Shown here piece by piece: positions 57,210 to 59,769 of a stretch of 63,629 bases of DNA. The DNA comes from Hydrolagus affinis. Taxonomy: Eukaryota. A program made the position numbers and the translations under genes. Under the pieces are notes generated by a model. That model worked only from the letters and a program-made list of their open reading frames with translations, was not told the origin of the DNA and made no database searches. Numbering within the stretch: the stretch's first letter is position 1; every line of letters begins with the position of its first letter. Location: assembly GCA_012026655.1 (NCBI GenBank), contig JAAILG010001644.1:1-63629 (forward strand). Direction: 5' to 3'.

Positions 57210-57451
57210 ATAATAATAATATTAATAATAATAATCCCTCGAAAAAGGGTTAACCAGGCTGTGAACAAAACAATAATAAATTGGCCATTTTCAATCCGTG
57301 ACTGTTTGTGGGACACTGCTGTGTGAAATTGGCTGTCGCGTTTCGCCCACAAATATAGTCAATACACTTTCCAGTATATTCTGTGAAGCACTTTGAGATG
57401 TCTAGAAGAAGTGAAAAGTTCCATATCAAATGCAAGGATTATTATTATTAT
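57210..57451 (+). mobile_element. SINE family A, 5'-truncated, nested
   Basis: tcaatccgtgactgtttgtgggacactgctgtgtg...atatcaaatgcaaggattattattatta. Confidence 0.85.
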
Positions 57452-57512
57452 GGTGGGTTGAGGGACATTACTGAGCACAAATTGGCTGTTATATGATGTT
57501 TGCTTGCAAAAC

Positions 57513-57670
57513 GCACATAGGAATAGAAGTAGGCCATTCAGCCCCTCAAGCCTGTTCCGCCATTCTATAAGGCTGATCTGTATCTCAACTCCAACCACCC
57601 GGCCTGCCCCATATCCCTTGATATCCTGACCTAACAAATAGCTTCACTTCAGTCACGACAATTTGAACAG
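57513..57670 (-). mobile_element. CR1 3' terminal ~160 bp
   Basis: Minus strand tttgttaggtcaggatatcaagggatatgggg...gagatacagatcagcc...gaatggcggaacaggcttgaggggctgaatggcctacttctattcctatg; similar to the CR1 3' UTR at 11950-12075. Confidence 0.82.
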
Positions 57671-57679
57671 AAAAACAAC

Positions 57680-57747
57680 TTCCTTGTCGGGGAATTGAAC
57701 CCCAGTCTCCCACGTGACAGATAGGGATAATAACCACTGTATTAACA
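57680..57747 (-). pseudogene. tRNA-Asp(GTC) pseudogene, first ~4-5 nt missing
   Basis: Minus strand GTTAATACAGTGGTTATTATCCCTATCTGTCACGTGGGAGACTGGGGTTCAATTCCCCGACAAGGA is colinear with vertebrate tRNA-Asp-GTC; several changes are CpG transitions; acceptor and anticodon stems are disrupted. Confidence 0.85.
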
Positions 57748-57939
57748 GTCACTACACATTAAAGTAGAATTTTGTGATGTGTTTTGACACATCTGGAAGT
57801 ATTATTATCAAGTATTATTATTTAAAGATCATGCCTGTTCCTCATGTCTCCCTCTCTTCCCCCCAACCCCAACACCACCACAGAGGTCAAATAATATATC
57901 AAAATGCAATGATTATTATTAACTCATGAATGCAGGTAA

Positions 57940-58092
57940 ATTACTGAGCCAAGATCAATTGCCCATTCTGCTATCCTGACTTCAATGACCTAGCTCAACA
58001 TAGAGCAGGGATTAAACCATGGTCCTTTCCTGTCTGCATGGCTCAATTCAGCACTATCTAGTGTCTTTATAAACTGAGTCATCACAGGAGCT
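57940..58092 (-). mobile_element. SINE family B 5' fragment
   Basis: tcctttcctgtctgcatggctcaattcagcact...aactgagtcatcacaggag. Confidence 0.5.
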
Positions 58093-59489
58093 TTCAAGGT
58101 CTATAGTTTGGAATCCTATTTGAAAGTCATTCATTCCCCACAGTCAGACTTGCTGTTTTTTAAAACCGAACTGGAGGTAGTGAGAGGGTTAACCAGGCTG
58201 TGAATTAAAGTTGAACAGTTACTGAAATCAGTCTTTAGTTTTAAAGTAGGACTTCTGCAGCCATCTGTTAAATCTGACAAGGTCTGCGTTTTATTTGGAC
58301 AATGTTATTAATAATGAAGTGATGCATGAGTGCCGTATTCTCTTCCTTCTTAATAATAATATTTATGGGACATTTCCAGAGAAATTATGTGGTGTCTATC
58401 CTTTTTCAGGCCGTAAAAAATTCAGCATTCCGTGGTATCGTGTCCTAGAGTCTGTCACAACTCTGGGACGCACTACAACACAATGGATGCAGAGAGCTGA
58501 ATTCACAGGAATAAAAATAGCCTCAATACATTTTTACTCTCAGACCCTAAAATACACACTTCTTAAACATTCCTTTGCCATACTGCAAACTAGTGTTACT
58601 TCACTTGTCTTCTCTCCCCACCCCCGGCTCTCCTCTCTCACTTCCTCACCCTCACCTATATACCATTCTTCAATTCCTTACTTAAGACCCTCTGACCAAT
58701 TTAATTCCCCTGAATCCCATGGTAAAAACAGAGCTCTTTCTCACCACGTGCAAGCATGTTTCTGCTTTCACTGGCGACATGCTGGAGCCAGAGCCTTCCG
58801 TTCATGGGAAACATTGCTACGTGTGTCGCTAAAAACAACACAAACACAGCCCGCAAATCCCCCCATCACCCCCACCCCCCCACCCCTCCTCCTTCTCCTC
58901 CTCCCCGCTCCACTGCTCACACTGAACTCATCAGCGCCTGAGATTTATTACAGGCAATGGCCAAACTAAGGCTTAATTCACAGCTACCTACAATGACACT
59001 AGTGATAGGAAGCACAATCCTACTTTCTATTCTGCTACCTTTTACCCTGTGTGGGACTCTGAAACCTCTAGATGCTTATCCCTTTAAAGGCAATTTAAAA
59101 TGCTTCATAAATTCCTTCTTTGAATACTCATTTCCTTTTTTTAAAAAAAGATTACAAATAATTTTCTTCTCACTGTACTTCACCATAAGTGAGATTTTTT
59201 GTACAACAACGCATTCTGACTCATAGTGTGAGTATCGGATCAGTCATATGCATTTGTTAATAATTGTGGCCTTTTGTTGGGATTTCCAATTAAACACAAG
59301 TATTAGTGATCCGCGCAAGATAGCGAGTTTCAAAAGTCAAGTGTATCTAAATTGAATTTTAATTTTCCCGCTGGCTAAAAAAAGGCCAGCTTCCTGGTGG
59401 TCGGGTCAGCAAATTCACTTTCTGCATGTTGTGCGTCTGCAGGAAGGACCGCTGACGTAAGTGACACAGAAAAAATGATGCCGGGGTGT

Positions 59490-59769
59490 GGAGTCCTGTA
59501 GCTCAGTGGTTAAAGCACTTGCCTCACAAGTGAGAGACCTGGGTTCAATTCCCGGCAGGGCGAAGCGTTGGACAAGTTTCCTTACTCTACACGCCCAACA
59601 ATAATCAATCCCCAAAAGATTGTCATTTCAACCCACAACTGTTTGTGAACACTGCTGTGCGCAATTGGCTGCTGCGTTTCACCCACAGACATACTTTACA
59701 GTACGTTCTGTGAAGTGCTTTGAGACGTGAAAAGCGCTATATCAAATGCAAGGATTATTATTATTATTA
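59490..59769 (+). mobile_element. SINE family A with intact tRNA-like head and internal deletion
   Basis: gagtcctgtagctcagtggttaaagcacttgcctcacaagtgagagacctgggttcaattcccggcagggc (A and B boxes)...gtgaaaagcgctatatcaaatgcaagga(tta)n. Confidence 0.88.

What the first reader, a model, noticed from the sequence alone, without database searches (positions are those of the whole stretch)
57513..57747. Pre-tRNA-Asp/CR1 chimeric retrocopy: possible SINE-birth intermediate or undescribed minimal SINE
Seen on the minus strand: nearly complete tRNA-Asp(GTC) with no CCA, a short trailer GTTG plus TTTTT, then directly the last ~160 nt of a CR1. The ~235-bp unit interrupts a DeuSINE tail whose halves rejoin (gtttgcttgcaaaac / aacagtcactacac), with aac shared at the junction. 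Established: Pol III primary transcripts end in oligo-U, U6-L1 chimeras join such an end to a LINE 3' fragment, and many SINEs are a tRNA head plus a LINE tail. Inference: one event fused an unprocessed pre-tRNA to CR1 RNA by template switch or RNA ligation. The internal T5 would terminate Pol III, predicting a dead-on-arrival single copy unless read-through occurs.
Basis: partly seen in the sequence, partly recalled or inferred. Interest (0 to 1): 0.7.

Follow-up and report, generated by a model that had tools for sequence, protein, structure and literature searches.

The report
One-off pre-tRNA–CR1 chimeric retrocopy
A decayed copy of an unprocessed aspartate tRNA is joined directly to the tail of a CR1 jumping element at a single spot in this genome, likely because a reverse transcriptase jumped from the element's RNA onto the tRNA precursor; it has the layout from which SINEs are thought to be born, but no second copy with this junction was found.

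Summary
Observation confirmed. Minus strand: tRNA-Asp(GTC) lacking its first 5 nt (11 differences in 67 from the genome's genes), no CCA, a trailer and T-run like those of the genes, then ~158 nt of a CR1 3' end. The host SINE rejoins bluntly around 57513-57743, with 3 nt shared with the tRNA start; no TSD. Two other coded organisms carry the filled site; no empty site was seen. Six genome-wide pattern searches found this junction only here; simulation puts a family of this age below about 6-10 copies, so it is not a new SINE. The same genome holds independent look-alikes: a U6-oligoT-CR1 chimera (EN and RT domains) and a second, older tRNA-Asp/CR1 candidate with another junction and another CR1 family. 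Best reading: a one-off template-switch chimera, as known for U6-L2 (platypus) and proposed for the founder of bird PittSINE (tRNA-Asp + CR1). Corrections: the join may lie at the end of T4 or four bases further; being single-copy does not test the terminator idea. The scan noted similar chimeras in other genomes. Real, tidy, modestly interesting.

The parts
57680..57746 (-). tRNA-Asp(GTC)-derived head, nt 6-72 of the gene; anticodon 57718-57716; A-box region 57744-57733 and B box 57701-57691 present; decayed, no longer folds or scores as tRNA
   Evidence: 11 differences in 67; not called; fold z +0.72; organisms A and C read the gene's G at 57742 and 57680
57744..57746 (-). 3-nt microhomology at the 5' junction, shared by tRNA nt 6-8 and the host SINE
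57671..57679 (-). pre-tRNA 3' trailer (4 nt) and T-run (Pol III terminator-derived, T5); no CCA
   Evidence: gene trailers ATTA/ATCA/ATCG/GTCA + TTTT; 8.1 bits, 0.07% of random 8-mers
57668..57671 (-). ambiguous junction bases: either first bases of CR1 or four bases of read-through past the terminator
   Evidence: breakpoint likelihood
57513..57670 (-). 5'-truncated CR1-type LINE: end of ORF2, 3' UTR and terminal short repeat
   Evidence: 9.6% from the majority of 27 copies; the same 3'-end profile hits the end of an EN+RT element in L104 at 116 bits
57457..57512 (+). left half of the interrupted old host SINE tail
   Evidence: 7 bits alone, 36.0 bits rejoined
57744..57821 (+). right half of the interrupted host SINE tail
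   Evidence: 14 bits alone, 36.0 bits rejoined
57264..57451 (+). neighbouring younger copy of the same abundant SINE family (context, not part of the insertion)

Best explanation
This is a single-copy, decayed fusion of a 5'-shortened pre-tRNA-Asp (with its trailer and T-run) to the last ~158 nt of a CR1 element, set bluntly into an older SINE, and it likely arose in one retrotransposition event in which the CR1 reverse transcriptase switched template from CR1 RNA to the 3' end of a nascent pre-tRNA. Shown: the order and orientation of parts, the gene-like trailer without CCA, the lossless rejoining of the host, 3 nt shared at the 5' junction, the filled site in two other coded organisms, no second copy of the junction. 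Inferred: priming at the CR1 3' end, copying of ~158 nt, a jump to the pre-tRNA's oligo-U end (or four bases beyond), a stop 5 nt short of the tRNA 5' end and joining to the target by microhomology. Predicted: it kept both internal promoter boxes, but Pol III would stop at the T-run before the CR1 tail, so its transcripts would lack the tail that a stringent LINE needs; it has since decayed.
For: Host rejoins with nothing lost or duplicated and no host DNA between head and tail. Trailer + T4 as in the genome's tRNA-Asp genes, no CCA, no 5' leader. Non-CpG divergence of the head (6 of 54) is like that of the tail (15 of 156). Junction unique genome-wide (per-copy sensitivity 0.37 and 0.27 in simulation). 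Filled site in organism A (57539-58100, 9 differences) and organism C (57606-57830, 9 differences). Independent look-alikes in the same genome: U6 lacking 9 nt at its 5' end, then a T-run, then directly a CR1 EN..RT..3' end (L104), and tRNA-Asp + a second CR1 family inside another host SINE (L142). Precedent: 5'-truncated U6 + short L2 in platypus, one U6-CR1 in turkey (PMC4476161, section 10); PittSINE founder model (PMC5729268); RtcB ligation needs a 2',3'-cyclic phosphate (PMC6789731, passages), whereas nascent Pol III transcripts end in 3'-OH (recalled).
Against: No orthologous empty site was seen; the empty site is rebuilt from paralogous SINE copies only. No TSD, although CR1/L2 TSDs peak at 3-5 bp (PMC4245944, passage). 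The breakpoint can be read as a four-base read-through (58% with a flat prior), which would also fit a DNA template. The second tRNA-Asp candidate L142 has no T-run and is degenerate. Sequence cannot tell a template switch from earlier RNA ligation.
Confidence: 0.72

Rival explanations
1. Pre-tRNA and a CR1 RNA fragment were ligated as RNA first (RtcB-type), and the fused RNA was then retrotransposed.
For: Shown for human U6/L1 chimeras (PMC6789731, passages). The join at or near the T-run and the U6-T-run-CR1 case L104 look the same under both routes.
Against: RtcB needs a 2',3'-cyclic phosphate; a 3'-OH end strongly reduced ligation (PMC6789731, passages). Nascent pre-tRNA oligo-U ends are 3'-OH (recalled), so an extra cleavage would be needed.
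Confidence: 0.1
2. The CR1 cDNA captured a piece of a tRNA-Asp gene from DNA (or from a read-through transcript) during 5'-end joining, so the head is not a copy of a terminated pre-tRNA.
For: The commonest gene class continues after TTTT with bases that match the window for four more positions at the cost of one transversion; read-through reading 58% overall, 65% for that class. The genome has at least 153 tRNA-Asp-like places. Extra 5' nucleotides are common for L2/CR1-type inserts in fish (PMC4245944, passage).
Against: The captured piece spans almost exactly the transcript (nt 6 to the terminator), which a random DNA piece would rarely do. The class that supports read-through is the most homogeneous, probably young one (7% pairwise difference against 31%); with the more diverse class the T-run join has 91%.
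Confidence: 0.08
3. Two independent insertions: a short CR1 first, later a pre-tRNA retrocopy exactly at its 5' end.
For: Short CR1 pieces are abundant (605 first-look candidates for 106 nt) and nested insertions are common here (L087).
Against: No TSD or tail of its own for the tRNA part, no host base between the parts, host rejoins without loss; similar age of the parts; both present together in organisms A and C.
Confidence: 0.06
4. The unit is one member of a small or old tRNA-Asp/CR1 SINE family.
For: SINE-like layout with A and B boxes and a CR1 tail; PittSINE has this layout (PMC5729268). The assembly is fragmented (245,464 contigs) and sensitivity falls for older copies (0.10 and 0.06 per copy).
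Against: No second copy; 95% bound about 6-10 copies at this age, about 23-52 if older. The internal T5 is a terminator-like run. L142 has a different junction and CR1 family.
Confidence: 0.04

Closest known systems
U6-L2 / U6-Mon-1 chimeras of platypus, U6-L1/L2/RTE chimeras of Anolis and one U6-CR1 copy in turkey (Doucet et al. 2015, PMC4476161; section 10 read whole, plus passages)
   Same: 5'-truncated Pol III RNA with its 3' end placed directly upstream of a short LINE 3' end of a stringent clade; each copy an independent event; short or no TSD.
   Different: Head is a pre-tRNA with trailer, not U6; LINE is CR1 in what looks like a cartilaginous fish (taxon inferred from recalled repeat types); blunt insertion here, 1-9 bp TSD in 72.5% of the 40 platypus cases.
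PittSINE and TguSINE1 of passerine birds (Suh et al. 2017, PMC5729268; part 2 of 4 and passages read, supplements not read)
   Same: tRNA-Asp head directly on a CR1 3' tail; founder proposed to be a tRNA-Asp/CR1 chimera made by template switching.
   Different: PittSINE is a multi-copy family whose tail came via TguSINE1; this is a single decayed copy with a terminator-like T5 between head and tail and a tail that includes the end of ORF2.
Human U6/L1 chimeras formed by RtcB ligation (Moldovan et al. 2019, PMC6789731; passages)
   Same: Small RNA ending in a U-run joined to a 5'-truncated LINE.
   Different: Needs a 2',3'-cyclic phosphate end, which U6 has and nascent pre-tRNA is not known to have (recalled).
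Shark SINE/LINE pairs HE1/HER1 and SacSINE1 (table passage in PMC3747384)
   Same: tRNA-derived head with a CR1-type tail in cartilaginous fishes.
   Different: Those have a long conserved body between head and tail and are high-copy; here there is no body and one copy. Sequence comparison with HE1/HER1 was not possible (no repeat library).

Membership tests
Small-RNA/LINE chimeric retrocopy | Small RNA copy directly 5' of a 5'-truncated LINE, same strand | tested here: met
Small-RNA/LINE chimeric retrocopy | LINE 3' terminus at the 3' end of the insert | tested here: met
   match runs to the terminal short repeat at 57515-57513
Small-RNA/LINE chimeric retrocopy | Both parts occupy one integration site (TSD or blunt) | tested here: met
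   host rejoins bluntly, judged from paralogous copies
Small-RNA/LINE chimeric retrocopy | Orthologous empty site lacking both parts | tested here: inconclusive
   filled in organisms A and C; no joint 57512-57744 listed in any of 7 runs laid
Small-RNA/LINE chimeric retrocopy | Junction at the RNA's 3' oligo-U end | tested here: inconclusive
   36-91% T-run depending on donor class
Small-RNA/LINE chimeric retrocopy | Independent events with different junctions, not a family | tested here: met
tRNA-head/CR1-tail SINE family (PittSINE-like) | tRNA-derived head with A and B boxes | tested here: met
   both boxes lie within nt 6-72; A box has one window-specific change and one shared change
tRNA-head/CR1-tail SINE family (PittSINE-like) | Tail shared with a LINE 3' end | tested here: met
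tRNA-head/CR1-tail SINE family (PittSINE-like) | Many dispersed copies sharing the head-tail junction | tested here: not met
   only the window
tRNA-head/CR1-tail SINE family (PittSINE-like) | Pol III transcript runs from head into tail | not testable with these tools
   T5 lies between them; no RNA holder listed
CR1-clade LINE (tail donor) | ORF2 with APE endonuclease and RT upstream of this 3' end | tested here: met
   L104: PF14529 E 1.6e-9, PF00078 E 5e-9; its 3' end matches the tail profile at 116 bits
CR1-clade LINE (tail donor) | RT phylogeny places it in CR1 rather than L2 | not tested
   name rests on recalled ORF2 end and 3' repeat type
DeuSINE (host) | Conserved Deu domain in the SINE body | not tested
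   no repeat library; shown only that the host is an abundant tRNA-headed SINE with an (ATT)n tail

The most novel reading that the evidence does not exclude
CR1 elements in this lineage regularly capture nascent Pol III transcripts (pre-tRNAs, U6, SINE heads), leaving a standing pool of proto-SINEs with intact promoter boxes and a CR1 tail, and whether the terminator is carried into the junction decides which can found a family. A census of such fossils would measure the raw rate of SINE birth and, because pre-tRNAs would not be RtcB substrates, separate template switching from RNA ligation.
Probability: 0.3. Interest if true: 0.55.

Novelty: new member of a known kind. Interest (0 to 1): 0.3.

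Why it matters
It is a clean fossil of the step that Suh et al. proposed for the birth of PittSINE (tRNA-Asp joined to a CR1 tail), caught as a failure, and it extends small-RNA/LINE chimeras to pre-tRNA and CR1 together with a full U6-CR1 case in the same genome. It has no sign of function and is not a new element family. Its practical use is as a phylogenetic marker and as a seed for a census of Pol III RNA/CR1 chimeras.

Tried and rejected
New SINE family: rejected. 3-bp TSD reading: disfavoured. Exact source gene with a GTTG trailer: not found; one search returned 49 places (the window plus genes with ATTA/ATCG-type trailers), and one gene with GTCA+TTTT turned up. Orthologous empty site: two lays (7 runs) listed no joint across 57513-57743; organisms D and E gave no identifiable orthologous piece over the site; holes prove nothing. 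No RNA holder listed. General screen for B box + T4 + CR1 tail: 6 hits, the window and 5 others, none a gene-like pre-tRNA (host-SINE heads near CR1 in L084 and L087, chance in L086, L088, L089); per-copy sensitivity only about 0.07. All six lay in one orientation; the reverse-complement pattern gave the same six and one search gave 6 forward, 6 reverse, so both strands are searched. Host-SINE head + CR1 tail within 200 nt: 0 hits. Of 12 hits, 2 were the window, 1 was L142, the other 9 were genes or SINE heads with chance motif matches (3 inspected, L141 = L064, 5 judged from the listing). Of 153 tRNA-Asp-like places, 100 were listed and 61 distinct loci held were scanned; only the window and L142 had a CR1 3' end within 450 nt. 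Folding: neither the head (z +0.72) nor the last 56 nt of the tail (z -0.60) folds better than shuffles. Paper searches for a described pre-tRNA/CR1 chimera or a shark tRNA-Asp SINE returned nothing or no fitting title; Repbase, Dfam and subscription journals were not searchable and no supplements were read.

Full report
What is there. On the minus strand the stretch 57746-57680 matches nt 6-72 of this genome's own tRNA-Asp(GTC) genes with 11 differences in 67, ten of them transitions and five at CpG. The first five bases and the gene's 5' leader are absent. ARAGORN and Rfam do not call it and it folds no better than shuffles, so it is a decayed copy. After the discriminator there is no CCA but GTTG and five T. 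All 39 gene trailers parsed are four bases plus TTTT (ATTA 35, ATCG 3, ATCA 1); the window's eight bases score 8.1 bits against them, a value reached by 0.07% of 20,000 random 8-mers of the window. The head is therefore a copy of an unprocessed precursor or of the gene, not of the mature tRNA.

The tail. From about 57670 to 57513 the sequence matches an abundant repeat, 9.6% from the column majority of 27 distinct copies (3 of 30 rows dropped as duplicates or nested). Those copies continue upstream into ORF2-like sequence. A profile of them hits, at 116 bits, the 3' end of an element in L104 that carries an endonuclease (PF14529) and an RT (PF00078) domain. So the donor is a LINE 3' end; the name CR1 rests on recalled features and was not tested by phylogeny.

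The site. A profile from 33 copies of the surrounding SINE scores the two flanks 7 and 14 bits apart and 36.0 bits when joined at 57512|57744, against 31.3 for a 3-bp TSD reading and 26.9 for a cut at 57748. The blunt join gives the modal 9-nt spacing (13 of 30 measurable copies); the TSD reading gives 6 nt (0 of 30). The insert is thus 57513-57743, with three bases (57744-57746) belonging to both the host and tRNA nt 6-8: microhomology at a truncated 5' end, as described for LINE inserts (PMC4245944, passages, which also says CR1/L2 TSDs peak at 3-5 bp; the lack of one is a mild point against a textbook event). Contigs of coded organism A (57539-58100, 9 differences) and organism C (57606-57830, 9 differences) span the head-tail junction and read the gene's base at 57742 and 57680, so the unit is old and shared. 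No empty orthologue was seen in 7 runs.

The internal junction. A breakpoint likelihood gives 42% for the end of the T-run (mostly after T4, the fifth T then being CR1's) and 58% for four more gene-derived bases. The read-through reading depends on the commonest, most homogeneous trailer class (32 loci, 7% pairwise difference); with the more diverse class (21 loci, 31%) the T-run join has 91%. I take the T-run join as more likely, not shown.

Family or one-off. DNA searches with the head plus junction and with the junction plus tail returned genes or CR1 copies, none spanning both (40 scored of 105 and 605 candidates). Patterns across the junction hit only the window (exact; with three mismatches). 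Wide-gap patterns from the tRNA-Asp body to the CR1 tail added one host-SINE neighbour and, with two mismatches, one real candidate, L142. Simulated copies aged like this one are found with probability 0.37, 0.27 and 0.44 by any, so a family of 6-10 copies would have shown at 95%; for older copies the bound is about 23-52. The assembly is fragmented, so these are bounds on the assembly. It is not a SINE family.

It is not alone as a kind. Of 14 U6 matches, L092/L104 is U6 from nt 10 (91% identical over 97 nt) ending in a T-run and running straight into a CR1 endonuclease region that continues, with one internal insertion, to a CR1 3' end about 3 kb later; no TSD was evident. L142 is a more decayed tRNA-Asp piece (85% over 40 nt) followed after about a dozen bases by the 3' end of a second CR1 family (27.2 bits on a profile of 7 copies), inside another host SINE whose flanks rejoin (78.6 bits joined, 66.7 left alone); it has no T-run and stays a candidate. 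Different heads, junctions and CR1 families point to repeated independent accidents. Against a high rate: a general B-box + T4 + CR1 screen gave no further pre-tRNA case among 5 other hits (sensitivity about 0.07) and a host-SINE-head + CR1 screen gave none.

Mechanism. Most likely (0.72) the CR1 RT primed at the element's 3' end, copied about 158 nt, jumped to the 3' end of a nascent pre-tRNA-Asp, stopped five bases short of its 5' end and joined the target through three matching bases. The jump itself is inferred. RNA ligation before reverse transcription (0.10) is shown for U6/L1 but needs a 2',3'-cyclic phosphate (PMC6789731, passages), which nascent pre-tRNA is not known to carry (recalled). 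Capture from gene DNA or a read-through transcript (0.08), two stacked insertions (0.06) and a tiny family (0.04) remain. The copy kept A and B boxes, so it could in principle have been transcribed, and the T-run would be predicted to stop Pol III before the tail; but single-copy status is the default for such chimeras and does not test this.

Comparison with what is known. Doucet et al. 2015 (PMC4476161; section 10 read whole) describe 40 U6-L2/Mon-1 chimeras in platypus, nearly all with a 5'-truncated U6 on a short L2 end, and one incomplete U6-CR1 in turkey. Suh et al. 2017 (PMC5729268) describe PittSINE, tRNA-Asp head on a CR1 tail, and propose a template-switch chimera as its founder. Kojima 2015 (PMC4494074, passages) uses the same family-versus-independent-chimera test. 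I found no paper on a pre-tRNA/CR1 chimera or a shark tRNA-Asp SINE, but repeat libraries, subscription journals and supplements were out of reach. The scan's own notes list similar chimeras in other genomes (unchecked) and nothing for this sequence or genome.

Verdict. New member of a known kind; interest 0.3.

Noticed in passing
L104 (G000:C701:25500-33400), U6 at C701:32753-32862, minus strand: U6 lacking about 9 nt at its 5' end, ending in a T-run and joined directly to a ~3-kb 5'-truncated CR1 (EN, RT, 3' end): a U6-CR1 chimera; the one U6-CR1 case in PMC4476161 could not be completed.
   Followed up: partly
L142:1490-1680 (G000:C23756): Second, older tRNA-Asp/CR1 fusion candidate with a different junction and a different CR1 family, no T-run, inside a host SINE whose flanks rejoin.
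   Followed up: partly
L102 (C1713:59437-59546) and L103 (C1892:18286-18388): Two U6 fragments that stop at nearly the same internal point and are followed by telomere-like GGTTAG-rich runs; L102 sits inside a CR1 ORF2. Unexplained.
   Followed up: no
L105 / L098 (G000:C12244:7859-7966): Degenerate U6-like piece, short at its 3' end, followed by the ORF2 end and 3' end of the second CR1 family; possible further chimera.
   Followed up: no
L084 (G000:C3:7976-8173), L064, L049: Host-SINE head or whole SINE followed directly by a sense 5'-truncated CR1; in L084 no SINE remainder follows the CR1, so it may be a SINE-head/CR1 chimera, whereas L087 is a nested insertion.
   Followed up: partly
window 59492-59563: The only tRNA called by ARAGORN and Rfam (tRNA-Val) is the head of a full-length copy of the abundant SINE (59487-59772 matches many loci), not a tRNA gene.
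   Followed up: yes
L002-L030, L107-L135: tRNA-Asp genes occur in a large repeated unit with shared flanks (at least 153 places, many on short contigs), sometimes beside tRNA-Val or tRNA-Ile, and carry a SINE-tail remnant about 90 nt downstream.
   Followed up: partly
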